DNA from: the human T2T-CHM13v2.0 reference genome, Homo sapiens
DNA length: 64,000 bases
Assembly (NCBI RefSeq): GCF_009914755.1
Contig: NC_060947.1
Reading direction: 5' to 3' (one strand)
The notes beneath the pieces were generated by a model that had not been told where the DNA came from, made no database searches, and was given only the letters and a program-made list of their open reading frames with translations. The position numbers were made by a program, and so were the translations under genes. Each line of letters begins with the position of its first letter. Position 1 is the stretch's first letter. Positions 2,415 to 36,258 of the stretch are shown one piece after another.

Positions 2415-4049
2415 CTGAAGGAGGAAGTGAGAGGGCACCTCAGGGTACATCCGGCCAGCGCATGCTGAGGCTGCAGGACTGAAAGTATTGAGGGTGAGGC
2501 CAGGCGCTCTGGAGTCCATGTGTTCTGGGGCAGGTGGGGCCCTTGGTTTGAATCCAAGGCAAACCTTCACCGTTGGCACTATCTGAGCCCCCTCTACTCT
2601 GTGACCTGAGGACACTGCCTCAGACCAAGTCCTCACTGCCTTGTTCCTGGAGCTCCTGATTCCTGGGAGAGGAATCCACGGGCCCCCAATGTGCAGACAG
2701 CAAACGCAGCCACGGATTCCCAGAACTGTCAGGAGGGTTGGCCAGACTCTGTGAGGTCCCCACTCTACTGGGGTGGAGGATCCCCTCTGTGCTCACTCAG
2801 GGCCCTCACCTTTCTCCTTATAGGGCCTAATCCCTCCCTTCTGCTGGCCTGAGAATCTCTCATGTCAAGAACTCACATACCTGATATGGTACAGAAAAAC
2901 ATGAGGGGACCCACATCTGGCCATACATTCCCAGGTCCTCCCGGAAAGGACAACGAGAGATGTCCAAATTTATTGAAGTCCATGTACCCTGGGTGAGGAG
3001 ACTGCTTGGTCCTCACCTCCACTCCTAGTAGGGTCTGAGAGCCTCCCTCTACTGCCCTGAGTGCAGCCCCCTCAGACCAAGGCTTCCCCTTCCCTGACAT
3101 CAGTGATCCTAGGATAATGGAGGGACCTCAGCTGACAGCCCTGCCCAGGCTCTCTGAGGTAACAGCAGGAGCAGGGCAGATTTTTATGGGGCCCCCAGTC
3201 CGCATTCTGTCCCAGGGGTACCCTCAATCCTCCCTCAGTCTCTTCACCTGGATGCTTGGCAGATCCTAGGACCACTGCATCTGTCCACCACATAGGGGCC
3301 CCTTGGGGGTACACCTTGGGCCCTGCAGATCCTGGGATTCCTCCCTCTGCTGACCTGAAGTCCCACTCTTCAGACCACAGCCCTCAACTCTCTGGTCACC
3401 CTGAAGGCGCAATGAGCACAGAGCACATTTGGCCACTGTGCCCAGCATCCCCCAGCCCAAGGTTGCCACTGATCTGGACTCCAAGGTCCCCTCAGTCCTC
3501 CCTCTTCTTCCTCCCCATGACTCCTCGCAGGGCTGGGCCCCAACCCCCTGCTGAAGTGGGTCTGCATCCCTAGGATTCCCGTAGCCGAATGAAAAGGTGC
3601 CTCGGTTTGAGACAGGGGTACAGTGGGCCCCCTGTCCTGGCATGCTGGGTCCCCTCAGGACTCCACTGTCTTCCAGGAGGGCCTGGGCCCTTTCGCTGCC
3701 TCCCAACGGCCATACTCGCGATACCGAACCCCTTCCCTCCCTTAGCCGTAGATGTGAACCTCAGGACTCACGTGCCTGGCCGCCATTCCCGGAGCTTCCG
3801 TGACTTGATACCAGGGGCAAAGCCCGGATTCTGCCAGGATAGGGGTGGGGGTGGGGATGGGAATGGGGAATGGGGGATGGGGGTGGGGTTGGTGTTGGGG
3901 GACGGGAATGGTGGTGAGGGTGGTGGTTAGGCTGCCCTCAGTTCCCTCTCGGGGTCCTGACCTTGATTCCTGCCACAGCGTGGGCCCTGACCTCTTCTAA
4001 CCAGCCCTGCCCTGGCCACATTAAGCTCTGTCCCCAGAGTTCCCCGTGG

Positions 4050-4950
4050 CTAAAGCGGCGGGGGTCGGCGGGGTGAGGTAGTGGCGACCCAGCCTGGAAG
4101 TCTTCCCCTGCGGGGTGGCCCAGGCCCGGCAGCAGAGGCAGCACTGGATTATTTGAGGCCCTCTGTCTGAGGTGAGGCCCGCCTCAGTCCTCCCTCAGCG
4201 TCTTACCTTGCCTCCTCACCGAGCCTGGGCCGGCTTCCCTCCGCCGACGTCAGGCCGTCGCTCGTTGCTCAGGGCGAGAATCTCGCGGTCTTCTGACCTC
4301 CAATGCGCAAGTCAGTGGCGTCACATCCTGGCAACGGTACTACCCTGGGTTCCGGGCAGGGGTGGAACTGGATTCTGCCTGGATGGGGATCGGATGGGGG
4401 TGGAGGTAAGCATGAAGATGGTGATGGGGCAAGGGGTAAGGATTGGGACGGGGGTCCTGAGGCTGTAGATCCTGGTGGGGTCGGGGGAGTTGGGGGTGGG
4501 TGGGCGGGGCCTTCGGTCATCCCTCAGGGTCCTGAAGTTGATGCCTGGCTGAGCCTGGACCGCCATCCTCTGCAGATTGCTTCTGCTCCCCTCAGACCAA
4601 GTCTCTGACTCTGAGTCCCCCTGAAGTGGCATTGGGGGAAGGGGTGTGGTCTGGGTGACATCACTGCCTGCGTTTACCAGGGCTGACAAGAGGGGCTGAG
4701 CTGGATTCTGTGGTCCCTCTATGGTGTGTGGGGTGGGGGGGCGGTGTGGACCCTCAGTCCTCACTCAGGAGGGTCGTCTTCGTCACCTCTGGCTGTTGGA
4801 TGAAGTGATGGGCAGGAGATGCTCTGTTTCTGTCACCTGTGAGCATTTGCACAGCTGCACCCCTTGTAGAGAATGCCTGCGGGTCCCAGGCCAGGTGCTC
4901 CCTGCAGGGCGGGGCGGCAGCTCCCGCGGTTGTAGTGACCTCCTATTTCA
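4050..4950. promoter_or_regulatory. MAGEA3 CpG-rich germline promoter, probably bidirectional
   Basis: Local CpG cluster, Ets-like cores (acatcctgg ~4323, ttccgg ~4349), GC boxes (gggcgggg ~4502) and G-tracts. MAGE-A promoters are known to be silenced by methylation and to depend on Ets sites. Confidence 0.7.
4207..4284 (-). other. MAGEA3: MAGEA3 non-coding exon 1
   Basis: GAGATTCTCGCCCTGAGCAACGAG...GAGGAGGCAAG|gtaaga; CpG-rich; matches the recalled mRNA 5' end. TSS approximate. Confidence 0.85.
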
Positions 4951-5382
4951 GTCTTTGTGTTCTGTTGAAAGAATTTTTTTTTTTTAAAAATGTAATTCCT
5001 CTGCCACTATGGTGGTTTCAGGTTGTTATTAGCAGAACTCTGGAGTCATACTGCCTTAACCAACCAAATTTTCCTGGTGTCCTGCTATTACCTAGGGCTC
5101 TTGGCATCGTGTTTTCAGAGGCTGCCTCAGATTGTGCAAAGAAGTGAAGTGGAAAATTTCAAACTTTTATTCTACCCATTCTGTCATCTACCGTGTAGGC
5201 CGGCTACAAACCTCCCCAACATCCCTGCTGCTAACCCCCTCCAACCAACACTGCAAGTGTCAAACACAAGTACCAGCTCAACACAGCCTTGAGTCTCACC
5301 CTGGGCTTTCCCTGTTTTGTTGCGTAGATTTTGTTGCTGATACTGGTTTTTTATTTACTGTTTCCATTCTGTAATTTTCCAG

Positions 5383-5441
5383 GTTTGATTTGGGAAGCAG
5401 AGCACAGCAGCCCAAATTTGTTGTAATGGCGGCGGCTACAG
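5383..5441 (+). pseudogene. CSAG-like first coding exon (MAAAT-A) of a divergent transcript from the MAGEA3 promoter
   Basis: ctgtaattttccag|GTTTGATTTGGG...GTAATGGCGGCGGCTACAG|gtaagg; ATG at 5426 in good Kozak context; resembles the recalled CSAG1 start MSATTA. Confidence 0.7.
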
Positions 5442-7194
5442 GTAAGGCACTAAATTGTAAATAATTTAAGCTGAGTTTACATTTTTACAGTGTTGTGCTC
5501 CCCATGAATGAATATGTTATACTCCTCTATGTATTTCAAGCTTTTTTTTACCTGAATATGTCAGTATACTTCGACAGTTGTCTCTATAAAGACCTTATAC
5601 ATTTTTATTAGACTTCTTTTCAGGCAATTCATGAATTTTGTTGCTATTGCAAATGGCATATTGTCTATTAATTGTTGTAGTTAGTTATTGCTTTCGTGAG
5701 GTGAAGATTTTGATTTTGCTGTAGTAATCTGTTGCACTCCTCGTTCTGAAGGCCGATGCACTTGAATATTCCACATACCTTTTCCTTTGAATTTTCAAGA
5801 TCGATAATGGTATTATCACTAAACATTACATATTCTTCCAGTATTCATACCACTTACTCATTTTGGTACTTATAGCTCTTTGTGTCTCAATCCTGATTTC
5901 AATCGTAGAGATAATAGCCTACATCTACTTCTCGTTCCTGACGTGAATGATAATTATTCGAACGTTTTGCATTTAAGTATGTTTGCTGTTGATTTTAGGA
6001 AGTGCAATTTCTCTTTGAATATAGGTTAAATACTTTTTTTTTTTTTACCATGAACTCATATTAAATTTCTTTAAAAAGCTTTTTCTGTACCCGTTGACAC
6101 AATCAAATTTTTTTCTCCTCCATTTTGTATGTAAGGAATTACAATGAAACCGTTTTTTTTTTTTCCCCTAATGTTAAACCGTATGTTATTTCCTTGGGCA
6201 GAGCCTGTTTATTTAATATGCTAGTAATTTACGTAGGATATTTGCTGCTATGTAAGGGAGCTTACTTAATGTGTGCTTTTTTTCCCATCAAGGGTGGGAT
6301 GTGGTCCTCATCTGGTTTTTGAATCCAGGAGGGCTAGTCTGGAAGAATGAATTGAACAATTGTAAATATTTTGTATGTTCTAGAAGAGATGAGATAAGAT
6401 GGTGGTTAGTTTTCCCTGATCATTTGGTAGAATTGGCCTCCAATACTGCCTAACCTGGAATGTTTGAAGGTGGCTTGAGCTTTGAATATTGTACAGTTTC
6501 AGTTTTTATAGTTTAATTAAAGTTTTCTTTTTCTTTTTGGATCAGTTTGGTTACTGGTTTATTTTATTTCTACAAAGTGGTCAGTTTCATTTAGGATTTC
6601 ACTTTTAATGGCATATTTATTATAAAAAAAGTTTTACTAGGGAAAGCCTTCACACGTACAGAATAATAGGAACTAATGTAATGAACCCAGGATACTAGAT
6701 ACCCAGCATGAACAACTTTAAATACACAGCAAATCTGGTTCCAGTTAGACACTTGCCTACCTGCACATCAGCTTCTGGAATAACGTGGAGCGAATCTAAG
6801 GCATTAGACCATTTCATCTCGAAATAACTCAATATGCATTTTTAAAAGATAAGGACGTTTTATTAAACAGAATCCCAATAGTTTTCATATCTGAAAAATT
6901 ATATAAATGATTATCAAATATTCAACTATTTTACATGCTTATCTGGCCGACTTATACTTTATAAAAAACATATTTCTTTGATGGAGTACCCAAATATGGT
7001 AACTTTCCCGCCACTTGCTTCACTGTAGTGGTTTCATACATGTATAATACAGCTAGGTTTGTGTGTGTGTGTAACATTCTACATTCTGTCCCATGATTCT
7101 CCAACTTCTTAAGTTACTTTTAGACTTTACATACATTAAGCTTCACTCTTTGTGCTGTAAAGATCTATGGGTTTTGACAAATGCCTCGTGCCGT

Positions 7195-7558
7195 TGTCTT
7201 AGTCCCTTTGGGCTTCCATAACAAAAATAGTGTAGACTGGGTGGCTTATAAACAACACAACTTTATTTCTCACATTCTAGAGGTTGGGAAGTCCAAGATC
7301 AAGGTGCTGGCAGATTTCATGTCTGATGGAGACCTGCTCCCTAGTTCATAGACAGTTGCCTTTTCCCTATGTCCTCACATGGAAGAAGGGGCAAGGGATC
7401 TCTGTGGGGTCTATTTTATAAAAACACTGATCCCATTCATGAGGACTCTGCTCTCATGAACTAGTCATTCTCCAAATACCCCACCTTCTACCTAATACCA
7501 TCACCTTGGTATTTCAGCAGATGAAGTTTGTGGGAACACAAATATTCAGATGAAAGCA
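7195..7558 (-). mobile_element. MLT1A-type MaLR solo LTR inside an old L1 (L1MC-like, ~7100-8830)
   Basis: tgtcttagtcc...gactgggtggcttataaacaac...gaagtccaagatcaaggtgctggcag; flanks are typical antisense L1M 3' sequence. Confidence 0.75.
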
Positions 7559-8834
7559 AGCACGGAACCACCATTACAGTATTACCATACTAGTTTCACT
7601 GCCCTGATAAATCCCCTGTGCTTGTCAGATAACCCCCTTGGCTGCCACTGATAGGTGTTTCATCTTTATAATTTTGCCTTTTCCTGAATGTCATATAAAT
7701 AGACTCGCATACTATGTAGCCTTTTTAGACTGGTTTCTTTCACCTAGCATAATGAACTGAAGAGTCATGTATAACTTTGTGTGGCTCAGAACTTATTCCT
7801 TTTCATTGAGGAGTAGTAGTATCATTGTCTGGTTGTACCATAGTGCGTGTGTATATATATATCCATCCACCAAATGAAATACATTTTGGATGCTTCTATT
7901 TTTGGTGATTATGAAATAATCTTTTGTATACAATCGTATACAAATTTTTATGTAGACGTAAGTTTTCACGTCAATTGGGTAAATTGATTATGACTGCTGA
8001 ATCTTATGCTGTGTTCAGTTTTTTAAGAAAACGCCAAATTGTCTTCCAAAGTGGCTGTACCATGTTGCATTTCCACCAGCAATGAATGAGAGTTTCTGTT
8101 GCTCCACATCTTCCCTGGCAATTGATCTTGGTTTTCTTTTCTTTTTTTTTTTTTTTTTGCTTTTTTATGGATTTTGGACATTCTAATAGGTGTGTAGTGG
8201 TATCTCATTTTAGTACACAGTTATCTAATGAGAACGGATTCTCAGTACTTTTTTATGCTTATTTGCCATGTGTATATCTTCTTTTGTGAGGAGTGTGTTC
8301 AGATCTTTGCCTATTTTCATGTTTTTTCTGTCGTTGAACTTTAAGAATTCGTGTATGTTGTAGAGATATGTTCTTTATCACATATGTGTACCACCGATGT
8401 TTTCTGCTAGTCTGTGGCTTCTGTTTTCATTCTCTTAACATTGTCCTTTGAAGAGCACATGATGTTTATTTTAATAAAATCTACTTGGTAAATTTTTCTT
8501 TCATTGATCATGCTTTTGGTGTTGAATTTAAAAACTCACCACTGAACTCAAAGTTATGTGAATTTTCTCTTATGTTTTCTTATAGAGGGTTGTATAGTTT
8601 TTGCATTTTGCATTAGGTCTGTGATTTATATCGAGTTAATTTTTCTGGAATATGTAAGGATGTTTCTAGGTTATTATAATTTGCCTGTAGATGTCTAATT
8701 GTTCAGGCACCTTTTGCTGGAAAAACTGTACTTTCACCATTATTGCCTTTGTTGTGAATCACCTGACTATAAGTGTGCAGGTCTATTTCTGAGCTCTATT
8801 CTGTTTTATTAATCTATGTGTGCATTCTTTGCTA

Positions 8835-9253
8835 ATGCTTATGTCCTCCACCAAATTCATACTTTGAAGCCCTCAGCCCCGGGGTGTCTGCATTTGGAGA
8901 TGAGGCCTCTAAGGAAGTAATTAATATTAAAAGAGGTCATAAGGGTGGGGCCTTGATCCCATAGGATTAGTATGGTTATAAGCAGTTAGAAGAGACAGAA
9001 GAAATTACTTGTGTGCCTGCACTAGCTCTCTCTCTCTCTCTCTCTCTGCACATGCACAGAGGAAAGGCCAAGAACGGATATATTGAGAAAGGGCTATCTA
9101 CAAGCCAGGAATAAGGCCGTCACCAGAAACCAACCCTGCCAGTCCTTGATCTGGGACTTCCATACTTCAAAACTGTGAAAAAAAATAAATTTGTTTTGTT
9201 TCAGCTACTCAGTCCATGGCATTTTGTTAGGGCAGCCTGAGCTTACTAAGACA
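8835..9253 (+). mobile_element. MLT1A-type MaLR LTR
   Basis: aaattcata...tttggagatgaggcctctaaggaagtaatt...ggcagcctgagcttactaagaca. Confidence 0.75.
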
Positions 9254-9370
9254 TAACCTCAGGTAACACAATTTTTTTTTGTTTTCTCCTACAGAAAAAA
9301 AAAAAACCCATAATTTTGACATTTAAGTCTGTGGTTCATTTTGAGTTACATTTTTGTATGGTGTAAGATA

Positions 9371-9725
9371 TGTGCGATGGTTAGTATTATGTGTCAACTT
9401 GTCTAGGCTATAGTGCTCAGCCGTGTGGTCAAACAGTAGTCTAGATGTTGTTGTGAAGGTATTTTGTAGTTGTGATTGACATTTACCATCAGTTGACTTT
9501 AAGGGAAGCAGTTTAATCTCCATAATGTGGATGGGCCTCATCCAGTTAGTTGAAGGTGTTAAGAGAAAAGACTAAGGTTTCCTGGAAAAGGAATTCTACC
9601 GCAAGACTAACATAAAAATGTTGTGTGAGTTTCTAGCCTGCTGGCCTGCCTCACAGATTTGGGATATACAAGACCTCATAATCACATGAGATAATTCCTT
9701 ATGAAACCTTTATCTTTCTTTCTCT
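9371..9725 (+). mobile_element. MLT2 (ERVL) LTR carrying the CSAG2/3-like N-terminal reading frame
   Basis: gatggttagtattatgtgtcaacttgtctaggctatagtg is an MLT2 5' end. 9525-9650 translates MWMGLIQLVEGVKRKD*GFLEKEFYRKTNIKMLCEFLACWPA. Confidence 0.85.
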
Positions 9726-10047
9726 CCCTCCCTTTTTACATAGATAGATATGTAGGTAGGTAGCTAGATAGATAGATAGACAGGAAGAAAGCAATTACGG
9801 ATTGAAATTCAGTTTTGCATATAGATATCCAGTTGTTCTAGACCCAGTTGAATACACTATCATTTCTCTCCTCGAATCTTCATTTGTATCTTTATCAATA
9901 TTTGACTTATATATATATGCATATACATGTGGATCCATTCCTGGACTTTACTCTCTTCTTTTTATGTGTTTCTAAATTTAGGACAATTCCACACTATACT
10001 GATTATTGTTAGTTAATAAACCTTCAAATGAAGTAGGGGAACCCCTC

Positions 10048-10537
10048 TGTATTTATTCCTTTTCACACAGCTGATAAAGCATACCAGAGACTGGGAATGT
10101 TACAAAAGAAAGATGTTTATTGGACTTGCAGTTCCACGTGGCTGGGTAGGCCTCACAATCATGGTGGAAGGCAAGGAGGAGCAAGTCACGTCTTACATGG
10201 ATGGCGGCAGACAAAGAGAGAGAGAGCTTGTACAGGGAAACTGCCGTTTTTAAAACCATCAGATCTCTTGAGACTTATTCACTATCACGAGAACAGTATG
10301 GGAAAGACCCAACCCCATGATTCAATTATCTCCCACTGGGTCCCTCCCACAACATGTGGGAATATTGGGAGCTACAAGATGAGATTTGTGTGGGGACACA
10401 GAGCCAAACAATATCATTCCACATGTGGCCCCTCCCAAATCTCATGTCTTCACCTTTCAAAACCAATCCTGCCTTCCCAACAGTCCCCCAAAGTCTTAAC
10501 TCATTTCAGCGTTAACGCAAAAGCCCACAGTCCAAAT
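10048..10537 (-). mobile_element. THE1 LTR (10048-10416) plus adjoining THE1-internal fragment
   Basis: gctgataaagcataccagagactggg...ggaggagcaagtcacgtcttacatggatggcggcag...gggacacagagccaaacaatatca, followed by ggcccctcccaaatctcatgtc. Confidence 0.85.
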
Positions 10538-10775
10538 CTTGAGAAGTTGTCAAAGGACACTCAGTTTTCTTCAGTTAATAATGTAAAAGGACTGCACTGA
10601 CGTGGTTAAATTCCCAGGACTCTCAGTTCTTTAGGAATGGACTAAATATCTGGTATCGTCACTTACAAAAGTGTCTTGAACTTGATATAGTTTATGTTCA
10701 GAAATTGGTTCATATTTTTTATTTTTATCTTTTAATTCAATTTTTTTTCATGAGCTTTTTGAAGGCCCCCGGATA
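10538..10775 (+). mobile_element. HSMAR2 mariner transposon 3' fragment
   Basis: ttttcttcagttaataatgtaaaa...ggttaaattcccaggac...cacttacaaaagtgtcttgaacttgat...tttttgaaggcccccggata resembles the HSMAR2 end and TIR. Confidence 0.7.
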
Positions 10776-12207
10776 TGCACCCTGTATAAAGGAGAAAAAT
10801 TCTCGGGACTACTAATTTTGACCGAAATTATTGTTGATTTAATTTATACAAACACAAAAGGTGATACAAACATTTTTATAGCACCTAATGAACATATTTG
10901 TGAAATAAATGCATTCAAAAACAAACTAAAACAGAAAAGAATAAAAATATACAATAAAATAGTACACAGCAGGTTGCTGATTGTGGTGACCTCTGAGGTG
11001 CGGGCTGAATTGTGGAGGAACTTTATACAGAGAAGAATTGTGAATTATCTGTATTTTAGATTTCTTTTGCAACAAGAATATAGGCACAATTATCTTTTAA
11101 ATTACAATATCTAAATAAGCCTAACAGCAAAAATAGTAGCTGTGTATTAGTCAGTTAAAGTAACTGAAGTAACTGCTAGCTGATGCAATAGGCAAACCCT
11201 GGAATTTGAGTGACATGACAAAACACAAGTTTATTTAATGTGCACATGAGTCCTGATGTGGTTTGACAGGGCCTCTCCACTCTCCCGTGACCCAGGTATC
11301 CAGGCAGCTTCCACCTCGGGATTCCACCACCTCAACATGAGGCTGCCATGTTTACTATTAGATGGAGGGAGAAAGCATGGAAATGGCACACTGGCTCTCA
11401 GATGTCTAGATGTGACAAACAATGCTTCTGCTCATGTTTCAGTGGTAAGGGGTTGTCACATGACCCTTCCTAACTACAAGTGGACTGTACTGTTCCCATG
11501 TATCCAGGAAAGAGAGGAAGATGAGATGTGGGTGAGCACTATAGTCTCTCCCATAAACTGTTGCATAGTAGGTGCTCAACAAAAAGGAACTATTATTATT
11601 TGCTATGACAACAGCCCTCTTCATTGCTGGGAGGAGTTTCGGAGAAAACCAGATTTTCTTTACGTTCTCCAACTTTTTTTAAGTGTGTACTGTATGACAG
11701 ATGCTTTCAAATACAGGATCACATGTAGTTTTCTAAGGATCCAGTATACCTCAGCACCTCGTGTGATATACTAACTTCTTCACTCACTAGTATAGTTAGA
11801 TATACTAACTATCTTCACTTACTAACACTTTTCTGCACTGTCATTTGCAATAATGTCTGAAACCTTAGTAGGCTGAGAATTTCTCATTCTTTTAATTCAT
11901 GGGTAAAACCTCAACCTGTGGGTCTCTGCTACCCTCCTGTTACCTGAACGTCTGTTCAGATGCCATTAGACACATTGAAAGCTATGTCTTTCCTGTGGGG
12001 CAGATCCACAGACCAGAAGTAGTGCCAAGAGAGTTCTTTTTTTCATTTCTGATTTTTTTTCCATTTCTAATCAGAGCTAGCATGCCTACCGAGGAACCAC
12101 TTTTCGTCTCCTAGGAGAACTTTAGGGTTTTAGGAATTCAGCTTCAGTAGATATTTGCCCCACAGTGATTTTGACAGTCCTTCCTCATCTGTCACTTATG
12201 AAGGAGA

Positions 12208-12593
12208 TGCTGTGAACTGAACTGTGCCCCCACCCCCACCAAAACTCATATGTTGAAACCCTAAGACCCAGTGTGATGTATCTGTAGATGAGGCCTTTGG
12301 ACGTAATTAGAGTTAGATGAGGTCATTAAGGTGGAACCTTCGTGATGGGATTACCGCTCTTATAAGAGACATCAGAGAGCTTGCTCGCATTCTCTCCTTC
12401 TGCCATGTGCAGACACACAGAGAAGGTAGCTGTCTACAAGCCAGGAAGAGACCCTCACCAGGCATCAAACCTGCTAGAACCTTGATCTCAAACTTCCCAG
12501 CCTCCAGAAATGCGAGAAACATCTACCTATTTGTTTAAGCCACCCAGTGGTACTTTGTTATGGTACTTTGTTATGGCAGCCTGAGCTAATACA
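12208..12593 (+). mobile_element. MLT1A0-like MaLR solo LTR
   Basis: tgctgtgaactgaactgtgcccc...gatgaggtcattaaggtgg...tatggcagcctgagctaataca. Confidence 0.8.
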
Positions 12594-13191
12594 AGAGGCT
12601 TTGGCTTTTGACCATCTATGTATGTGCTCTGTGGCCAGTTTCCAATGAGACAGCTTATTAAAGTCCTATTGTAAATATAGGATGGTTTCAAACACTTTCT
12701 AACTTCAGGGTTGTATCCCAGGAACTGATATATTATAAGTCAAAATCAGACGCTACTCACCAGCTGACTTGGAAAACATTTTAAGAATGTGTTGAAGACA
12801 TCCAACAGGATGATCAGATGTCTAAAGGTCTCTATTCAAAGTCAAATGTATTTTTGCTATTAGAGGGGCCCCAGTGTGAGGAACAGGGACAGTCAGGGGA
12901 CTTCTCCAGAAAGTAGAACTGTTCTATGTTAGGAGAAGGGCAGGTGACTCTTGGCTGTCCCACTGGAAGTAGGGCACAGCCTTTAAAGGATGCAACCATG
13001 AAGAGCTTAGCAGCAAGCTCGATTCCAGAATTGGACAGGCAGGCACATGGGGCAAGACCATTGTGGAAGGGTGCTATAATTCGGGAAAGTGCTGGGAATG
13101 CACAGAAATGCTGGCACCTGGACAGAGTTGGCTCTCAAGGAACCACAGACGATTCCTAAATTGTGTTGGTTCTCATTGTCACCTTCCTTCA

Positions 13192-14010
13192 TGTCTTAGT
13201 CATTTCATGCTGCTGTAACAAAATGCTATAGACTGGGGGTCTTACACAACAGATGCTTATTTTCTCCCAGTTCTGGAGGCTGGGAAGCCAAAAGTCAGAA
13301 TGCCAGTATGGTGGGTGTCTGGTGAGGGTCTTCTTTCTGGCTTATGGATGCCCACCTTCTCTGTGAGTCCTCACATGGCAGAGAGAGAAAGAGAAAAATG
13401 TGCAAGCTCTCTGGCATTTCTTCCTATAAGGACACTGATATGGTCTGGATCAGTGTCCCCACCAAATCTCACGCTGAATTGTAATCCACAGTGTTGGAGG
13501 TGGGGCCTGGTGGGAGGTGATTGGATCATGGGGGCAGATTTCTCATTAATAGTTTAGTACCATCACCTTGGTACTGTGCTCATGATAGTGAGTGATTTCT
13601 CACGACATACGGTCATATAATAGTGTGTGGCAATGCCCCCCCCGTCTCTCTTGCTCCTGCTTTCACCAAGTGAAGAGCCTGCTCCTTCTTTGCCTACTGC
13701 CATAAGTAAAAGCTCCCTAAGGCCTCTCCAGAAGCAGATGCTGCCACGCTTCCTGTACATCCTGCAAACCGTAAGCCAATTAAACCTATTTTTTTTTAAT
13801 AAATTACCCAGTCTCAGGTATTTCTTTATAGCAACGCAAGAATGAACGAATACAGACATTAATCCAATCATGAGGGCCTACGCTCTCAGGAGCTCATCTA
13901 ACCCTAATTACCTCCCAAAGGCCCCATCTCCAGACCATCACATTGGGACTTAGAGCTTCAACATATACATTTTTTTTTTTTTTGGAGGGGAGCACATTTC
14001 AGTCCATAGC
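13192..14010 (-). mobile_element. MLT1A-type LTR split by an MSTB-type LTR (13436-13854, + strand)
   Basis: The MST runs tgatatggtctgg...gaatgaacgaataca and is flanked by a 5-bp TSD GACAC/GACAT; the host LTR resumes on both sides. Confidence 0.8.
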
Positions 14011-14164
14011 ACTTCTTTAGGCATACTTTTTGTAGCTTGACCACAGGGTCCTTCTTTTGGTTGCCTGAGAGACGTGGATTCCTGAGAAGTAAATAGCAAG
14101 ACGAAGGTCTGCTTCAGGTTGGGACGCGAAGGAATGACATACACTCAGATGAATTCGGACCATG

Positions 14165-14640
14165 TGTATTAGTTTGCTTTGGCTATCATAACAAGGTACC
14201 ACAGACTGGGGGAGCTTAAGCGTCAGAAATGTATTTTCCCAGTCCCGGAGGCTACAAGTTCAGGCTCAAGGTGTGGGCAGGGTTGAGTTGTCCTGAGGCC
14301 TGTCTCCTTGACTTGTAGATGGCCATTCTCTTCCTGTGTCTTCACATGGTCTTTCCTCTGTGTGTGTCTGTGTCCTAATGTCCTCTTCTTATAAGGACAC
14401 CAGTCATATTGGATTGGGGCCCATCCTAATCTAGCAGGGATGCAATCCCAACCGTGTTGCTTATTAGCCATGTAATTATGGGGAAATCATCAAGCCGCAT
14501 GAGCATCAGGTTCTTCATCTGTGAAGCAGGTTTGATAAAGTCTGTCTTATAGGACTTTTGGAGTGTGTGCAATGTAAGTAAAGCACTTGGCTCAGGGCCT
14601 GGCATATATTAGATCGTTAATGTTTGGCAGTTATTTGTGT
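14165..14640. mobile_element. MLT1C-like LTR fragment followed by a MIR
   Basis: tgtattagtttgct...accacagactggg...ttataaggacaccagtcatattggatt; then ttcttcatctgtgaa...tgtaagtaaagcacttgg. Confidence 0.65.
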
Positions 14641-15814
14641 TACTATTTGGAACTCAGATCCTACCATAGTTGCCTCTGGGAATTTTGTTGTTGCTGTTGT
14701 TATTGTTATCTAGGAAACCTCAGAGTACGTAGCACAACAGTACAGAGAATAGAATACCAACTCAGCCCAAAGTGTTGCTTCATAGACAAAACACAGTAGA
14801 ATTTCCCTCCTAGAGGATCTATTGTTTAATTTGTGTGTGGAGGAGTCTTCTTCAGCTGGATTGCAGCTCAGTGTTCCTGGAACGTGAGTCCAGGACCAAC
14901 TCTTTTCCTCCCTCTCAGCTGCTTTTCCATCTCAACCACTATTTTCATTCATATAATCACCACGCAAAATCTAGCCCATGCTCAGGAATGGCCAAATTAC
15001 ACTTGAGATAACCTAATTAGAATGCCATTTGACTAGAGTCAGCTCTAGCTCTCCCACTAAGGCAGAAGAGTACCTTGCCAGTGGCTTCTGGGCCTCCCTT
15101 CCTGAGAGATTCACCCTTACCTCCCAGGAAACCCTTGCAGATGATGAGTATCCATCACCTAGCTCTTGGGCTGTATTCAACCGCACTGGGATAAGAGCAC
15201 AGGATGCCTTCCATTCCTGCCCCAGGTGGAAACTCGTCTATGTTCATCCACCAACCATAATGAACTGCTCAGAGCAGTTTTCCATTCCAGGCTTTTCTCT
15301 CCCTGAGAATCTGACCCTGGACCCACCAGCTTCATTAGAATCAGCTTCCTCCGAAGGAACTGCAGTTTCCCAAAGCCCAAAAGGCCCTGGCTCAGGGCAT
15401 TTACACTCCACCACTCTCACCGGGAGCACCACACATTCTGCCCTCTCTTACTTTTCCTCTAGGTCTTAGAGGAAATCTCACCAACTTAATTTTATGACTA
15501 TAGCTCCTAGACCCTACCACCCTTCGGGTAGGGGTGGGTCTGACTTATGCCAGTATCTCCAGTAACACAGTGCTTTCCAAAGAGCAGATGCTCAGTGAGT
15601 GTTTGAGAAAGAATGAGCCAGTGACCAGGACTTCCATTTAAGATATAATTTCTCCTACATCCTTGAATAAGCCAAGAAAATCCAGGTACACATATATGGC
15701 TTAATTTTATAGAACAGCACATGAATAAAAAGCTGAGAATTAACTGTCTTTTCCTTTTATTTCTATTTTTTAGAGTAAAGTGAGAGCAAGTTTATTAAGA
15801 AAGTAAAGAAATAA

Positions 15815-16173
<359 letters not shown>

Positions 16174-16239
16174 TGGTTGCCCATTTTTATGGTTATTTCT
16201 TGATTATATGCTAAACAAGGGGTGGACTATTCATGAGTT

Positions 16240-16269
16240 TTCCAGGAAAAAAGTGGGGAATTCTTGGAA
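16240..16269. promoter_or_regulatory. Tandem GAS (STAT) motifs in MER41 U3
   Basis: TTCCAGGAA (16240-16248) and TTCTTGGAA (16261-16269), both TTCN3GAA, at the position of the known MER41B STAT1 sites. Confidence 0.6.
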
Positions 16270-17384
16270 CTGAGGGCTCCTCCCCTTTTTCAGCCATATA
16301 GGGTAACTTCCAAACGTTGCCATGGCATCTGTAAACTGTCGTGGTGCCGGTGGGAGTGTCTTTTAGCATGCTAATGCATATAATGAGCAGTGAGGATGAC
16401 CAGAGGTCACTCTCATTGCCATCTTGGCTTTGGTGGGTTTTGGCTGGCTTCTTTACTGCAACCCGTTTTATCAGCAAGGTCTTTATGACCTGTATCTTGT
16501 GCCGACATACTGTCTCATCCTGTGACTAAGAATGCCTTACCTCCTGGGAATGTAGCCCAGTAGGTCTCAGCCCTATTTTACCCAGACCCTGTTCAAGATG
16601 GAGTTGCTCTGGTTCAAACACCTCTGACATTTCCCTCCTCCCTTTTATCTGAGAACCTTTATTCCTAAGGGTTGTAGAGGGATGAAGATCCATCTTCTGT
16701 AACTTCTTCAGGCTGAATAGGGGTGATGATATTACTGCCTAATTATGAGAGTCTTTTGAATTCAGGACAGAGAGGAGCTCAGTCAGAAAGCGTCAGTTTG
16801 GTGAGGGTCATACACAACTCTGAGTTCTGACAAAACATGTTATCTGGAAGATTAATAAGTGTTCAGTTTAAGAAAACATTGAGTAAGCTTATCCTGCACT
16901 CCTGCACCAAGAATACAACACCAGTGTATTCCACAACAGTAAAGCAAAATAAGTAAAATTATCCCAAGGTAAACTAAGTAAGAAGGCTTTCCTTGAACTG
17001 GGCAACTGTTAGAACCAGGCTGATACGGGGTCACTATCTGATTTCAATATGTGCCCAGAACTAGAATATTGATCCAGATTTTTACATTACCCATCCCTCT
17101 TGCTTCTTCTAAATAGCAGTCAGGGATCACTGATTGGTTCACAGGAATAAGAAAAGTGAGTCTAAATTGCAGAAAAAAACTTTAAAACAACGAATGAAAC
17201 TAGAATCTAATAACAGGTGCACCATAGTTTTTGCAACATCATATTTTTTTCTCTCTCCAGTCTCCCATTTTTACTAAAGACAAATCATGGTAAGACTGGT
17301 TTGTTTTATTATACTTGGCCTGATCATTTGTATAAAGTGCAGCAAGAATAATTATTTTTCACATACGCTCTTTATATTTTTATT

Positions 17385-18120
<736 letters not shown>

Positions 18121-19085
18121 TCAAATACCTCTGAGTTGGGTAAAATCCTCTCCTCTTGAGGTCCCAAGATAACTTGGGGCTCCTGGGCCTGTCAGATAAT
18201 GACATTCTTTACTTACCACAGGTCAGTAACCCTGCACAGGGACTGTGTAGACAAGTTATGAGGCTAGTTTTCCCAAGGGGTTTTTATTGGCTCTATAAGT
18301 CAAGTTTGATCCCTTAAAGGAAAGAACACCATTCCAGTCAAAGCCTTGGTAAAATAACCAGTTTCTCCAATTGTGTCTTGTTGCAAAAGAAAACAGATTC
18401 TTATTGCACTTATGCAAATAACTATATTGCTATAAGTTAAGAATATTCACAAGCAGTTTCCAAATTCTAGAGAAATTAGGTAGAGAGAAACAAATATGCT
18501 CTGAATTTTGTTCACAGAAGTATACTTTACTGAATTGTTAAAAGCTGTCAATAGCCCAGAAGAAAAGTTTTCCTGACTCCAAAGTCTGCCAGTCAGTGCT
18601 GCCGTCTATTTCCTTTGGGTCAGGGGGTTTCCTCAGTATTGTCCCTTCAGGGTTCACCGGAAAGATGTTACTGGAATGGGGTCCCAGTGCAGACTCCAAA
18701 AGAGGGTTCTTGGAGCTCGTGCAAGAAAGAATTCGAGGTGAATCCATAGAGTAAAGTGAGAGCAAGTTTATTAAGAAAGTAAATAAAAGAATAGCTACTC
18801 TACGGGCAGAGCAGCCTATCTTTTCCTTTTATTTCTCTGTTTCATGACCCCATCAATTTTTTTGCTAATGTATTTCATTCTCCAAGGAAACACCTATTCC
18901 AATGCCATGGCATCTTGTTCCAAACCGCAAAACCAGATGAAGGGCTTCCCAATATGTTTTACAAAATAGCAAACTCATCCAAATAGAACAGAACACAAAG
19001 ACATTATACACTGAGTTCCCTTCCACCCACCGTGCCTTTCACTAGTGAGAACGCTGACTGCTCTCTTTAGAGTGAAGAATGGGCC

Positions 19086-20010
19086 TCATGTCACACAGGG
19101 TGGGGAAGCTGCTGGATGTAGCCCTGGAACGTGCACTAGTCCACCCCACCCTCCACTGGCCCTGGCTGCATCGCCTGCTGAAACTCTCTCTTCCTCATAG
19201 CATGCAGGATCACTTCTGGGCACCTGCCAGTACTCCAGGTAATTTTCCTGCACCCAATCCCGGGTGAGCAGCTTCCTGGGCTCCCCATAGATGAAGTGCT
19301 CCCTCCCAGCATACACCTCTATCACATTCAGGGCTTCCCACATAACCTCCTCTGGGGCGCAGTTGCCCTCCGTGAAGATCACACACAGGACAATTATTAG
19401 GAGGCCCGTCTTGGGCTTGCTCGGGTCATCAACCAGCATGCCATCATAGGAGAGGCCCAGAGAGGTGACAAGGACATAGGAATGGCCGGTGGGGACCACT
19501 TCCTTCACGTCGATGCCAAAGATCAGCTGCATGTACTCGGAGGATTCCTTGAAAATGAAAGCGAAGTAGTCTTCGTGATTTTTGATGACACTATCCACCA
19601 TTTCTGCCTTTGTGACTGACTCCTTAATTCGAAACTTGTGGAGCAGGACACTAACTAAATCAGACACCTTGTCAGAGTGCCTCTCGGAGGAAGGACTCCA
19701 TGACACTTGGGATGGGCAAGGTGATTGGCTCCTCCTTTTCTTGGCTGCTGGAGCCCTCATCGGATTGGTTCCATAGAGTGTTATCGATGGTAGTGGGGGA
19801 GGAGGAGGCTCCCTGCATACTCTGGGGAGGACTCAGTGCCTCAGCAGCACACAACTCCTCCAGGGTGCCCATGATCAGACTAGAGGAGGAAGAGGCAGCC
19901 TCCTCCTCCTCAGGCACAGGACCCTGCCCACCCACCAGGCCAGGGACCTCTCCTTGGGCCTCAAGGCCTTCCTCAGGCATGTAGTGCTGACTCCTCTGTC
20001 CAAGAGGCAT
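19086..20010 (-). pseudogene. MAGE-A family pseudogene coding exon (frameshift plus C-terminal deletion)
   Basis: ATG at 20010 gives MPLGQRSQHYMPEEGLEAQGE...REAL* (112 aa). The MAGE homology domain continues in another frame from ~19673 (DKVSDLV...VTKAEM...GLSYDG...[19 protein letters not shown]...PACYE). The FLWGPRA segment is missing. Confidence 0.93.
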
Positions 20011-20153
20011 GATGACTCTGGTCAAGGCAGCAAGCGGGAGTGTGGGCAGGAGCTGGGTAATGGGGATGCACAGGCCTGGGGAGAGAGGGAGCGTGTGAGA
20101 GGCCTCAGCTAAGAACCAGACTTTGGAGGAGGCTCTAACAAAGGCCTACTTAC

Positions 20154-20227
20154 GGATCTTCTCCTTCAGTGCTCCTCTGGGGCCTCCTGGGGCTCCTGTC
20201 CTCCTGGTCAGCCTGTCCCCTGAGAAT
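20154..20227 (-). other. Pseudogene non-coding exon 2 homologue, splice sites intact
   Basis: cttcag|ATTCTCAGGGGACAGG...GAGAAGATCC|gtaagt; the downstream exon 3 acceptor ctctccccag|GCC at 20075 is also intact. Confidence 0.75.
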
Positions 20228-22970: not shown

Positions 22971-24015
22971 AGGGTCCTGAACGTGATGGCTGGCAGAGCC
23001 TGGCTGCTGCCCTCTCCTAGGCAGCCCTGCCCTGATCACACCAACCTCTGACTCCAGAGTCCCCTGAGGCTTAAGTGGCAGAGAGTTGGGGGCGGCCCAG
23101 CCTGAGAAGTCCGCCCCCGGGTGGTCCTGGGTTGGCAGCAGGGGTGGTGCTGGATTTTTTAGGGTCCTCTATCTTGGGTTGCAACGGGGTGTCCCTAGTC
23201 CTCCCTCAACGCCTCACCTTTCCTTCACACACAGCCCGGGCCCGCTTTCCTCCGCCGATCTTAAGCCACCCCTCAAAACCAGGCCCTCGCTTCCCTCTGA
23301 TCCCTGAGGCGCAAATCAGTGGCATCACATCCGGGCACCCGGGGCTTCCCTGCGTTGACAGCAGGGGCAAAACCTGATTCTGTCGGGGTGGGGGTGGGGA
23401 TGGGAATGGGAATGGAGGAGGGGTGGGGGCGAGGATGGGGGTGAAGATGGGGATGGGGATGGGGATCCTGAGGCTGTAGGTCGTGGCGGTGACGGTGGGC
23501 TTGGGGGTGAGGGAGGCCCTCAGTCGTTCCTCAGGGTCCTCACCTTGAAACCTGGCAGAACCTGGGCCCTGCCCTCTCCTAACCACCCCTGCCTTGGTCA
23601 CACCAAGCTCTGACTCCAGAGTCCCCTGTGGCATAAGCGGCGGGGGTTGGCAGGGCGCCGGGGGGTGGCCCAGACTGAGAAGTACTCCCCTAGGTGGTCC
23701 AGGGCTGGCAGCAGGGGTGACGCTGAATTATTTGGGGTCCTCTATCTGGGGTGGAGGCGTCCTCAGTCCTCCCTCAGCCTCTCACCTTGTCTTCTCACAG
23801 AGCCTGGGTCCACTTCCCTCTGCCAATCTCAAGCCGCCCCTCAGACCGAGACCCTCGCTTCTCTGACCCCCTAGCCGTCACATCCGGCCACCAAGCCTGG
23901 GGCTTCCTTGGGTTGACTGCTGGTGTCATAGCGGATTCTGCTATGAGTGGGGGTGGAAATGGGGGTGGGGGTGGGGGGTCGAGGTCGAGGGGGTGGGCAC
24001 TCTCAGTCATCCTCA
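22971..24015 (-). promoter_or_regulatory. Two tandem MAGE promoter/exon-1 modules (22971-23532 and 23533-24015)
   Basis: Each is homologous to MAGEA3 ~3950-4520 and has an Ets core CCGGATGT (23327-23334; 23880-23887), a donor AAG|gtgag (23218; 23786) and a G-tract. Confidence 0.75.
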
Positions 24016-25262
24016 AGGTCCTGACCTTGATGCCTGGCAGAGCCTGGATCCCATCCTGTGTGGATGGTGTCTGCTCCCCTCAGACCAAAGCACTGACTCC
24101 GAGTCCCCTGAGGTGGCAGTGGAGGGAGGGATATGGTCGGGGCGACAACATTGTCAGGGTCTTCCAGGGCTGACAGGAGGGGCTGAACTGGATTCTGTGG
24201 TCCCTCTATGTGGGGTGAGTGGACCCTCAATCCTTACTCAGGAGGGTTCTCCTCTTGGCTCCTGGCTCTTTGATGAAGTGATGGGTGGGGGATGCTCTGT
24301 TTCTGTCACCTCTGAGTATTCGCCCAGCTGTACCCCTTGCAGAGAATGGCTGCGGGTCCCAGGCCAGGTGCTCCCTGGGGAGCTGCAGTGCCTGCGATTG
24401 TAGTGGCCTCTGGGAGAAGACACACACCTTCCCACGGGGGCTCCTCCCCAGCCAGAAGTCGACTTGTCAAACCTTTTGTCCTAAAGCATTTATTTTTACA
24501 CTGAAGAGGCTGAGCAGCAGCAAGAGAATTGAGGAGTCCTGCATTTGGAATTTTTGTGACATTTAATTGTACTGTTTAGTGACGTGCATATTTTAATCCG
24601 CATTCACACAGTAAGAAATAAATTTTACATTTCTGCTAATTGTATGTGTACATTATATGTCATATATGTAGACTATGCTTATGTTTAGATACATAAACAT
24701 GTATGTATATAAGTTTGTTATATATGAATAATTTTATGTATTCACACTATATATCTTTACAGATATATATGTACATATATTACATATACTTATTTCATTA
24801 AACAATATCTACTCATACTATGTATGATTCACTCATGCTATTCCATTTCTAGTTCATTCTTTATATTCTATTTAAATTACATTTTTGGAAGGCCAGGCCT
24901 CACCTACTAAGTTGGTGTCAAGTGGGTATTAACAGAACTCTGGAGCCATCATGTCTCAATCACACCAAGATTCCTGGTGTCCTGATATTACCCCAGGGCT
25001 ACTGGCATCACATTGTGAGATGCTGCCTCATATTAGGCAATAATATGGGGTGGGAGTTTAAAATAATTTTTCCTTCTACCCATTCTGTAGTGTGCTGTCA
25101 GCGCAGGCTACAGACCTCCCCAACTTCTCTGCCACTACCCCATGCCCCAAACACAAGTAGCAGTTCAATGCAGTCTTAGTCTCCCCAGGGATTTCTCTGT
25201 TTTGTGGTTTAGATTTTATTGCTAATCCTTTTTTTTTCTTTTTCCATTCTATACTTTTCCAG

Positions 25263-25322
25263 AATTGATTTTGGGAACAGAACACAGCAGCCTGAACTTG
25301 ATTGTTATTTTGGCAGCTACAG
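25263..25322 (+). other. Paralogue of the divergent (CSAG-like) exon, without ATG
   Basis: atacttttccag|AATTGATTTTGGG...GGCAGCTACAG|gtaagg; splice sites conserved with 5383-5441. Confidence 0.6.
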
Positions 25323-35527: not shown

Positions 35528-35684
35528 GAATATAATTTCTAAAAATAGTTTTATTGAGATATACTTGATATATATACTCTGGCCCCAAACCCAGAATACC
35601 CACCTCCCTCCCTTCCCACACCACTGCCTCTTCCTTCCTCCCTCCCTCCCCACCATCTGAGAATATACAGACCCACACATCATT

Positions 35685-36258
35685 TTACAACAGGTTCATT
35701 TTATTTTCATCACCCTGTGGGGCGCAAAATGTACTCTAGACCTTGTTGGCTATTTCTCCGGCGGGGGGTGTGGGGGGCGGGTCAGACCTTTGGGGACTTC
35801 TCAGATAGATTTGAGGTCTCTTGCCTTGCCCTGAAATTACAGGCTGCGCAGGGAAATGCTGGAGATGGTGGAGGTAGGTCTTCTGGCTTACTTGGTCCTG
35901 CTGTGGCTGATTTTTATTGAGTTCCTTATTCAGCTGGTTACAGTGGCTAGATAGTGTTGGCCCACTTCCTTCCTCAGGTTTGCTTGAAGCGGGGGTCTTT
36001 TAGGGAGAAGCTTTTTTCCTGGAACTCCCTCACAGGGTTCTTTTTCCCTTTCAGGTTGTCTTGGGAACCTGGAAGGACAGCAGGGAGATCACAGAAGGGA
36101 ATTGGTTTTGGGGGAGAGGATGGAAGAGGGGTGGGAACAGAAGCTTCATGAGAAGGGGTGCAGGCTGGGGTGGGGGTTAGAGCCAGGACAGGACAGGGTA
36201 GGAGTCGGAGCTTGAGTGGGCCACTCACCTTGATAGGGCTTCTGGGCCTGGGTTGAGA
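35685..36258 (-). pseudogene. 5'-truncated CSAG (chondrosarcoma-associated gene/TRAG-3) paralogue: end of penultimate exon, 160-bp intron, last exon
   Basis: CTCAACCCAGGCCCAGAAGCCCTATCAAG|gtgagt (36229) ... ctgtccttccag|GTTCCCAAGA (36068) splices to LNPGPEALSRFPRQPEREKEPCEGVPGKK, versus recalled CSAG2/3 LNPGPEALSKFPRQPGREKGPIKEVPGTKGSP. AATAAA at 35913-35918 and 35700-35705. Confidence 0.8.

What the first reader, a model, noticed from the sequence alone, without database searches (positions are those of the whole stretch)
5383..9689. 5' half of a CSAG gene, divergent from MAGEA3, still in its unrearranged state
Seen: a + strand 59-nt exon (5383-5441) with a Kozak ATG encodes MAAAT(A). Four kb on, inside an MLT2 LTR, a branch-point ACTAAC (9606-9611) and acceptor tttctag| (9637) continue it in phase as ACWPA. 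The spliced product would be a 22-aa peptide, MAAATACWPASQIWDIQDLIIT*. Recalled: CSAG1 begins MSATTACWPAFTVLGE. Here the LTR simply carries on after CWPA, whereas CSAG switches to unrelated sequence. Inference: this copy preserves the pre-fusion state, so CSAG arose as a chimera of a MAGE-A divergent transcript, an exonised MLT2 and a captured 3' segment. The unit may still be expressed as a lncRNA or micropeptide together with MAGEA3.
Basis: partly seen in the sequence, partly recalled or inferred. Interest (0 to 1): 0.85.

Follow-up and report, generated by a model that had tools for sequence, protein, structure and literature searches.

The report
Unfused sister of the CSAG genes
This stretch is the non-coding transcript that runs head-to-head with the MAGEA6 cancer-testis gene, and it is the sister copy of the front half of the CSAG genes, showing how they arose when a small deletion joined an old retroviral LTR to a neighbouring mini-gene.

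Summary
Exon 5383-5441 (ATG 5426, donor GT 5442), ACTAAC 9606-9611, acceptor AG 9635-9636 and the 22-codon spliced ORF are all present. The gene is MAGEA6/MAGEA6-DT, not MAGEA3; the MAGEA3 arm is 99.65% identical.

Window 4000-9651 is collinear with CSAG1, CSAG2 and CSAG3 at 86-90% identity.

The CSAG 3' part was not captured from elsewhere. In three older MAGE-A units it lies 1.8 kb (6 kb in one) downstream of the same LTR, on the same strand. There it is a separate two-exon mini-gene with CCAAT and TATA boxes, related to a VCX-like locus. CSAG therefore arose by a ~1.8-kb interstitial deletion.

The window copy kept the whole LTR but lost the mini-gene through a different deletion. It is a sister lineage, not the full pre-fusion state.

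The annotated transcript splices 5441 to 25263, not to 9637. Upstream ATGs precede the ORF. A functional micropeptide is unlikely and remains untested.

The parts
4294..4405 (+). MAGEA6-DT exon 1, 36-52 bp from the MAGEA6 first exon on the other strand (bidirectional promoter). It is paralogous to the 5' ends of CSAG1 and CSAG3.
   Evidence: Hub annotation. Window 4000-4942 aligns with the CSAG3, CSAG1 and CSAG2 loci at 86-87.5%. Donor GTAAGC at 4406. Holds three ATGs.
5383..5441 (+). Exon 2 of MAGEA6-DT (59 nt) with ATG at 5426. Paralogue of the exon that supplies the first five codons of CSAG1.
   Evidence: Splice sites are kept in all 8 aligned copies. The ATG is present only in this copy and CSAG1/2/3, and absent in the three older units and in the PSMAGEA-unit copy.
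9373..9735 (+). Solo LTR of a dispersed repeat family (ERVL/MLT2-like by recall; name not tested).
   Evidence: dispersed copies on many chromosomes cover query 465-836 of window 8900-10100 at 72-81% identity; 5512 first-look candidates.
9525..9575 (+).
   Evidence: translation. alignment (CAA in CSAG3). A CSAG3 protein in the database starts at this ATG.
9606..9636 (+). Branch-point-like ACTAAC (9606-9611) and acceptor tttctag (AG 9635-9636). Differs at 1 of 20 upstream bases from the CSAG1 acceptor.
   Evidence: pyrimidines 10/18 in all three LTR acceptors; CTAAC at -30 in all three.
9637..9689 (+). Would-be exon start. It continues the exon-2 frame for 17 codons to TGA.
9651..9652 (.). Point where homology with CSAG1, CSAG2, CSAG3 and CSAG4 ends (left edge of the CSAG deletion).
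9652..10047 (+). LTR tail, (GATA)n and flank. Kept here and in the older units, deleted in all CSAG loci.
   Evidence: alignment to units u19 and u20 runs to 10045-10047.
10048..10951 (.). Scar of the separate deletion that removed the mini-gene from the MAGEA6 unit. Includes the masked repeat 10060-10456. Homology with the CSAG3 unit resumes at 10952-11008.
   Evidence: no mini-gene remnant in 9600-13200 with word size 7, E<=1e-3.
25263..25322 (+). Annotated exon 3 of MAGEA6-DT. It is the paralogue of exon 2 that belongs to the PSMAGEA unit, and it has no ATG.
   Evidence: hub annotation.
35599..36258 (-). 5'-truncated, inverted copy of the CSAG-type mini-gene (end of exon 1, intron, exon 2).
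   Evidence: 75-79% identity.

Best explanation
The span is the 5' part of MAGEA6-DT, a transcript that starts back-to-back with MAGEA6 at a shared promoter. It is the sister copy of the front half of the CSAG genes.

The ancestral MAGE-A duplication unit held, in order:
- a MAGE-A gene;
- on the other strand, divergent exon 1 and exon 2;
- about 4 kb of intron;
- a solo LTR;
- a 1.7-kb spacer;
- an independent two-exon mini-gene with CCAAT and TATA boxes, of the VCX/Y-SPANX-CSAG-Cypt kind.

Exon 2 gained an ATG in the common ancestor of the MAGEA2/3/6/12 units.

On the CSAG stem, one deletion of about 1.8 kb removed the LTR tail, the spacer and the CCAAT boxes. It joined the LTR, just after its cryptic acceptor, to the mini-gene core promoter. 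Reading through from exon 2 (CSAG1) or from an ATG inside the LTR (CSAG2/3) then made a new ORF. That ORF comes from LTR sequence, the former TATA region and 5'UTR, and the mini-gene.

Inferred: the deletion put the mini-gene under the MAGE-A bidirectional promoter, which would explain the co-expression of CSAG with MAGE.

The MAGEA3/6 unit kept the LTR whole but lost the mini-gene by another deletion. The same splice therefore ends after 22 codons. Here the locus most likely acts only as a promoter-coupled non-coding transcript.
For: Shown:
- Window 4000-9651 is collinear with CSAG3, CSAG1 and CSAG2 at 86-90% identity, with the end at 9651 in all four CSAG loci.
- The CSAG3 unit is collinear with u20 and u19 on both sides of the junction. 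It lacks 1768 bp of u20 and 1805 bp of u19.
- That spacer is homologous over its whole length between u19 and u20 (83%, 2078 bp) and in four collinear blocks in u21.
- Dispersed LTR copies run past the junction.
- The mini-gene lies downstream of the LTR on the same strand in u19, u20 and u21. It has a CCAAT/ATTGG and TATATATA layout that is also conserved at a chrX 8.03-Mb locus whose ORF starts MSPKPRAS.
- CSAG has no TATA at that place.
- An intronless copy on chr12 starts 27 nt after the TATA position and lacks exactly the intron.
- The exon-2 ATG is shared only by the window and CSAG1/2/3.
- In trees from two regions, CSAG1/2/3 are separated from the window plus u19-u21 with support 0.993 and 0.997. 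p-distances are 8-9% for window-CSAG and 14-20% to u19-u21.
- The CSAG1 and CSAG3 protein models match the conceptual ORFs. Old World monkey models carry the same junction.
- MAGE ORFs lie head-to-head with u19, u20 and u21.
- Window 9600-13200 holds no mini-gene remnant, and homology with the CSAG3 unit resumes at about 10952.

From print:
- Hansen et al. 2008 report a shared promoter for VCX/Y, SPANX, CSAG and Cypt (title and a summary seen in PMC8327908).
- Block B consists of units that each hold a MAGE-A and a CSAGE gene (PMC3112145, passages).
- MAGEA3-DT has log2FC 5.95 in a TCGA head-and-neck table (PMC12519442, passage).
Against: - Polarity rests on human paralogues only; no non-catarrhine genome was examined.
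- Gene conversion between units could distort the trees.
- I did not identify a poly(A) tail or target-site duplications for the chr12 copy.
- Promoter activity of the CCAAT/TATA region, and its loss in CSAG, is inferred from motifs and was not measured.
- The promoter-swap consequence is inference. Papers disagree on the timing of CSAG expression: post-meiotic in PMC8327908, pre-meiotic in PMC13616518.
- The annotated MAGEA6-DT model does not use the 9637 acceptor.
- Hansen et al. 2008 was not readable and may already describe part of this.
Confidence: 0.8

Rival explanations
1. One reading: CSAG captured an unrelated 3' segment from elsewhere, and the window copy is the intact pre-fusion state.
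For: Homology between the window and CSAG ends abruptly at 9651. The window holds no CSAG 3' sequence nearby on the + strand.
Against: The 3' segment lies downstream of the same LTR, on the same strand, in three older units. Both flanks are collinear with CSAG. The window unit has its own deletion of that segment.
Confidence: 0.05
2. The CSAG arrangement is ancestral. The LTR tail plus spacer was inserted in the other units, or 9651 is merely the edge of a segmental duplication.
For: Duplication edges are common in this palindrome region (PMC3112145).
Against: An LTR enters as one piece, and dispersed copies continue past the junction. The tail is present in the window, u19, u20 and u21. Sequence on both sides of the junction is collinear with the older units, so it is not a duplication edge. 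CSAG1/2/3 form the derived clade.
Confidence: 0.03
3. The 5441-9637 splice is used, and the 22-residue peptide (or 44 residues from an in-frame exon-1 ATG) is made and has a function or is presented as a tumour antigen.
For: The acceptor differs from the CSAG1 acceptor at 1 of 20 upstream bases and has the same branch motif. The ATG context is good. The twin locus MAGEA3-DT is up in tumours.
Against: - The annotated model splices to 25263, whose acceptor is stronger (15/18 pyrimidines against 10/18).
- Three upstream ATGs precede the ORF, including a 48-codon uORF that ends on the ATG.
- The ORF past CWPA is plain LTR sequence.
- The two genomic copies are identical in both stretches compared (window 9400-9800 and 5329-5500), which between them hold the whole ORF, so they give no signal of constraint.
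Confidence: 0.07

Closest known systems
CSAG1, CSAG2 and CSAG3 (chondrosarcoma-associated gene family, TRAG-3)
   Same: Head-to-head start with a MAGE-A gene, exon 1, exon 2 with ATG, the ~4-kb intron, and the LTR with its ACTAAC and acceptor. p-distance is 8-9%.
   Different: Here the LTR is whole and no mini-gene follows. The exon-2 frame stops after 22 codons, and the LTR-internal frame stops at codon 17. CSAG lacks the LTR tail and runs straight into the mini-gene.
MAGEA3-DT (twin on the other palindrome arm)
   Same: 99.65% identical over 8,503 bp (13 mismatches, 3 gaps). Exon 2 and the LTR are identical.
   Different: Lies next to MAGEA3. Reads cannot tell the two apart over the exons.
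VCX/Y-SPANX-CSAG-Cypt shared-promoter family (Hansen et al. 2008; paper itself not seen)
   Same: The CSAG 3' half and the mini-genes of u19, u20 and u21 share CCAAT boxes, a TATA box, a 5'UTR, the first codons and an intron with a VCX-like locus.
   Different: No such mini-gene lies in the finding's span. The window holds only an inverted, 5'-truncated copy at 35599-36258.
Divergent transcripts of other MAGE-A genes (units at 150.17, 150.39 and 151.49 Mb; MAGEA4-, MAGEA5/10- and MAGEA1-like by recalled gene order)
   Same: Same exon 2 with its splice sites, the same LTR, and the full pre-fusion layout.
   Different: No ATG in exon 2. 14-20% diverged.

Membership tests
CSAG gene family | Transcript starts head-to-head with a MAGE-A gene | tested here: met
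   Hub table: MAGEA6 ends at 4258 and MAGEA6-DT starts at 4294. Window 4000-4942 aligns to the CSAG1 and CSAG3 5' ends.
CSAG gene family | Exon 2 with ATG spliced to the LTR acceptor (CSAG1 type) | tested here: inconclusive
   Exon, ATG and acceptor are present and nearly identical to those of CSAG1. Use of the junction was not testable here, and the annotated model splices elsewhere.
CSAG gene family | LTR truncated after CWPA and joined to the mini-gene (FTVLGE... through the C-terminal exons) | tested here: not met
   The LTR continues past 9651. No mini-gene remnant in 9600-13200.
CSAG gene family | Open reading frame of about 78-127 codons | tested here: not met
   22 codons from the exon-2 ATG, and 16 codons from the LTR ATG.
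MAGE-A divergent lncRNA (MAGEA6-DT) | Annotated exon 2 at 5383-5441 with conserved splice sites | tested here: met
   Hub table.
VCX/Y-SPANX-CSAG-Cypt shared-promoter mini-genes | CCAAT and TATA promoter followed by a short basic ORF in two exons | tested here: not met
   Absent from 5383-13200. Present in u19, u20, u21 and, without the promoter, in CSAG.
ERVL/MLT2 LTR | Dispersed multi-copy element with defined ends | tested here: met
   copies on many chromosomes cover window 9373-9735.
ERVL/MLT2 LTR | Match to the MLT2 family model | not testable with these tools
No repeat library is available.

The most novel reading that the evidence does not exclude
MAGEA3-DT and MAGEA6-DT still use the LTR acceptor in demethylated tumour and germ cells. 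The LTR-terminated isoform would then be translated into a 22-residue peptide, or a 44-residue one from the in-frame exon-1 ATG. Its junction region resembles the CSAG1 N-terminus but ends in LTR-coded residues, which would make it a tumour-restricted non-canonical antigen co-expressed with MAGE-A3/A6.
Probability: 0.07. Interest if true: 0.6.

Novelty: new member of a known kind. Interest (0 to 1): 0.45.

Why it matters
MAGE-A3/A6 and CSAG/TRAG-3 are widely studied cancer-testis antigens. The human genome still holds all three stages of how the CSAG reading frame arose:
- the unfused layout, at three older MAGE-A units;
- a sister that kept the LTR but lost the mini-gene, in this window and its MAGEA3 twin;
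- the fused genes themselves.

This gives a clean, testable case of a coding sequence built from an LTR, a former TATA region and a 5'UTR by a single deletion. It may also explain why CSAG is switched on together with MAGE.

There are practical consequences too. MAGEA3-DT and MAGEA6-DT share their first exons' ancestry with CSAG, and the two are 99.65% identical to each other (their exon 2 and LTR stretches fully so), which matters for read assignment in expression studies.

I found no paper holding CSAG together with MLT2, ERVL, or LTR plus exon in this sense. Hansen et al. 2008 could not be read.

Tried and rejected
- My first guess was that FTVLGE is the LTR read in another frame after a 1-nt indel. 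I dropped it: the alignments show that CSAG sequence after 9651 matches the mini-gene promoter region of u19, u20 and u21, not the LTR tail.
- Hansen et al. 2008 is not held.
- Pfam: 0 families for the 104-aa CSAG3 exon ORF. A first call failed because one of the two references held a stop codon.
- Rfam: 0 matches in window 4000-11000.
- A sensitive search for mini-gene remnants in window 9600-13200 found none.
- A pattern for the mini-gene exon-2 acceptor in u19, u20 and u21 found nothing, so I do not say whether their full ORFs are open.
- Two off-by-one slips in my own slicing were corrected.
- The trees are unrooted two-region FastTree runs on 7 rows. CSAG4 and the PSMAGEA-unit copy were left out because they lack most of the aligned stretch.
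- Paper searches for MAGEA6-DT, MAGEA3-DT and -AS1 names gave one paper, a table row only.
Full report
**1. What is in the sequence**

- The window is T2T chrX:151032001-151096000 (hub note; confirmed).
- A 59-nt exon at 5383-5441 is preceded by ttttccag and followed by GTAAGG.
- Its ATG is at 5426-5428 in the context gtaATGG. It encodes five codons plus one base.
- ACTAAC is at 9606-9611. The acceptor tttctag ends at 9636, and the first exon base is 9637.
- The exon is exon 2 of the annotated lncRNA MAGEA6-DT. That transcript starts 36-52 bp from MAGEA6 on the other strand (hub table).
- The neighbour is MAGEA6, not MAGEA3. The MAGEA3 arm of the palindrome is 99.65% identical over 8,503 bp, with 13 mismatches and 3 gaps. 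It is identical over the two stretches tested (window 9400-9800 and 5329-5500).

**2. Relation to CSAG**

- A search of the window's own genome with 9400-9800 found four chrX matches at 90-93% identity. All cover query 1-252 only, so they end at window 9651 (41 matches listed).
- By the hub's coordinates, three of these lie in CSAG3, CSAG4 and CSAG1. The fourth is the CSAG3 twin on the other arm (CSAG2 by recall).
- Pairwise BLAST shows window 4000-9651 collinear with CSAG3, CSAG1 and CSAG2 at 86-90% identity. CSAG4 holds only 8090-9651. All end at 9651.
- The alignment shows the shared ...GCCTGCTGGCCTGCCT. After it, CSAG and the window are unrelated.
- In CSAG the residues after CWPA follow directly in genomic DNA.
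- Conceptual splicing of exon 2 to the LTR acceptor in the CSAG1 locus gives a 95-codon ORF. The part coded by the LTR-acceptor exon is 100% identical to a database protein named CSAG1 isoform X1 [Homo sapiens]. That protein's sequence equals the conceptual ORF.
- A protein named CSAG family member 3 starts at an ATG inside the LTR. The same ATG is at window 9525, but here it is followed by TAA at codon 17.
- CSAG1 has a 5-nt deletion in the LTR that closes that frame. This fits its use of the exon-2 ATG.

**3. Where the CSAG 3' part comes from**

- The 800 bases after the junction in CSAG3 have 24 matches in the genome.
- Three of them lie in more distant MAGE-A units. I call these u19 (150.17 Mb), u20 (150.39 Mb) and u21 (151.49 Mb).
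- These units also hold exon 2 and the LTR. In each, the segment lies downstream of the LTR on the same strand: about 1.7 kb away in u19 and u20, and 6.3 kb in u21.
- The CSAG3 unit is collinear with u20 and u19 on both sides of the junction. It lacks 1768 bp of u20 and 1805 bp of u19.
- That spacer is homologous along its whole length between u19 and u20 (83% over 2078 bp). It aligns in four collinear blocks in u21.
- Dispersed copies of the LTR continue past the junction to about window 9701-9735.
- The CSAG state is therefore derived, by one interstitial deletion. All four CSAG loci share the same edge.
- In trees from two regions, CSAG1/2/3 are split from the window plus u19-u21 with support 0.993 and 0.997 (7 rows, with CSAG4 and the PSMAGEA-unit copy left out).
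- MAGE ORFs lie head-to-head with u19, u20 and u21. The whole layout therefore belongs to the old MAGE-A unit.

**4. What the 3' part was**

- In u19, u20 and u21 the segment starts with ATTGG/CCAAT motifs and a TATATATA box (GTATGTATA in u19).
- About 27 nt further on begins the homology with an intronless copy on chr12. That copy lacks exactly the small intron.
- The ancestral unit was therefore transcribed on its own and spliced.
- Its ATG corresponds to the internal Met of the CSAG proteins, residue 36 of the 95-aa CSAG1 model.
- The same promoter, 5'UTR, first codons and intron align at 67.6% over 540 nt with a locus at chrX 8.03 Mb. The ORF of that locus starts MSPKPRAS. By recall this is a VCX gene.
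- This fits Hansen et al. 2008, who report a shared promoter for VCX/Y, SPANX, CSAG and Cypt. I saw only the title and a summary in PMC8327908. The paper itself is not held.
- In CSAG the CCAAT boxes are gone and the TATA position reads GGCTTGGA or GCTCGGGG.
- CSAG1 residues 1-5 therefore come from exon 2. Residues 6-10 come from the LTR. Residues 11-35 come from the former core promoter and 5'UTR. The rest comes from the mini-gene.
- In its first coding exon the mini-gene is read in a frame that differs from that of u19 and u20 after about ten codons.

**5. What the window copy is**

- The exon-2 ATG is shared by the window, CSAG1, CSAG2 and CSAG3. It is absent in u19, u20, u21 and in the PSMAGEA-unit copy at 25263-25322.
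- p-distances are 8-9% to CSAG and 14-20% to u19-u21. The MAGEA3/6 unit is therefore the sister of the CSAG units.
- It keeps the LTR tail and 395 further bases that are shared with u19 and u20.
- It then lacks the mini-gene. Homology with the CSAG3 unit resumes only at 10952-11008, which corresponds to 3.5 kb further on in CSAG3. No remnant is found in 9600-13200.
- It is therefore not the full pre-fusion state. That state survives in u19, u20 and u21.

**6. Age**

- Eight proteins matched the CSAG1 exon, all from catarrhines. They include models from Mandrillus, Macaca, Papio and Piliocolobus that carry the same junction.
- The deletion therefore predates the split of apes and Old World monkeys.
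- PMC3112145 reports no CSAGE homologue outside primates, and units of MAGE-A plus CSAGE in human and macaque (passages).
- No non-catarrhine genome could be examined here.

**7. How it likely works here**

- Shown: the annotated MAGEA6-DT model uses exon 2 but joins it to 25263, which is the exon-2 paralogue of the PSMAGEA unit (hub table).
- Shown: the LTR acceptor is weak, with 10/18 pyrimidines against 15/18 at 25263. It differs from the CSAG1 acceptor at only 1 of 20 bases.
- Shown: exon 1 holds three ATGs. One opens a 48-codon uORF that ends on the exon-2 ATG. One is in frame, giving 44 codons with the LTR exon and 92 with the annotated exons.
- From print: MAGEA3-DT appears with log2FC 5.95 in a TCGA head-and-neck table (PMC12519442, one table row).
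- Inferred: the locus is a by-product transcript of the MAGEA6 bidirectional promoter, switched on together with it. The 22-codon ORF is a leftover of shared ancestry rather than a gene product.
- Inferred: in CSAG, the deletion put the mini-gene under the MAGE-A promoter. Papers disagree on whether CSAG is expressed before or after meiosis.

**8. Novelty**

- MAGEA6-DT, the CSAG genes, the MAGE-A/CSAG unit and the link between CSAG and VCX/SPANX are all known.
- Full-text searches found no paper holding CSAG with MLT2 or ERVL. The search for CSAG with LTR and exon listed 14 papers. Twelve do not concern the human CSAG genes, judging by their titles. Of the other two, I read the CSAG and LTR passages of PMC3112145, and they do not connect the two. 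PMC3048570 (one CSAG mention) was not opened.
- The stepwise origin described here, and the reading of MAGEA3/6-DT as the unfused sister, may therefore be new. Hansen et al. 2008 and supplements were not seen.
- It is a clear instance of known processes: LTR exonisation and gene fusion by deletion.

**9. Other checks**

- Pfam gave no family for the CSAG3 exon ORF.
- Rfam gave nothing in window 4000-11000.

Noticed in passing
window 35599-36258, minus strand: Inverted, 5'-truncated copy of the CSAG-type mini-gene (end of exon 1, intron, exon 2), 75-79% identical to the other copies. It lies about 340 bp beyond the annotated end of MAGEA6-DT. How it came to be inverted is not explained.
   Followed up: partly
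L032 3370-3880 (chr12:273370-273880): Intronless copy of the mini-gene on an autosome, starting 27 nt after the TATA position. It is probably an old processed retrocopy. No poly(A) tail or target-site duplication was looked for.
   Followed up: partly
window 25263-25322: Annotated exon 3 of MAGEA6-DT is the paralogue of exon 2 from the neighbouring PSMAGEA unit. The predicted lncRNA therefore strings together the same exon from two duplication units.
   Followed up: partly
window 4294-4405: Exon 1 of MAGEA6-DT holds three ATGs. One opens a 48-codon uORF that stops on the exon-2 ATG (TAATG overlap). One is in frame and gives a 92-codon ORF in the annotated isoform.
   Followed up: partly
L017 7051-7850 against chrX 6.09, 7.40, 7.74 and 8.03 Mb and chrY 14.89 and 14.96 Mb: The CSAG3 intron and the start of its last exon match six X/Y loci at 78-79% identity. 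One of them (8.03 Mb) was examined and holds a VCX-like ORF with the same promoter layout.
   Followed up: partly
chrX 147.32, 147.94, 148.00, 149.77 and 149.78 Mb (L038 and L039 fetched): Further copies of the mini-gene with its intron (74-82% identity) that are not next to the LTR or exon 2 found here. Their neighbours were not examined.
   Followed up: no
chrX 147.85, 148.05 and 148.15 Mb: More distant copies of the exon-2 region (74-75% identity) lie 4-6 kb from MAGE ORFs on the opposite strand. The divergent exon therefore accompanies many MAGE-A genes.
   Followed up: no
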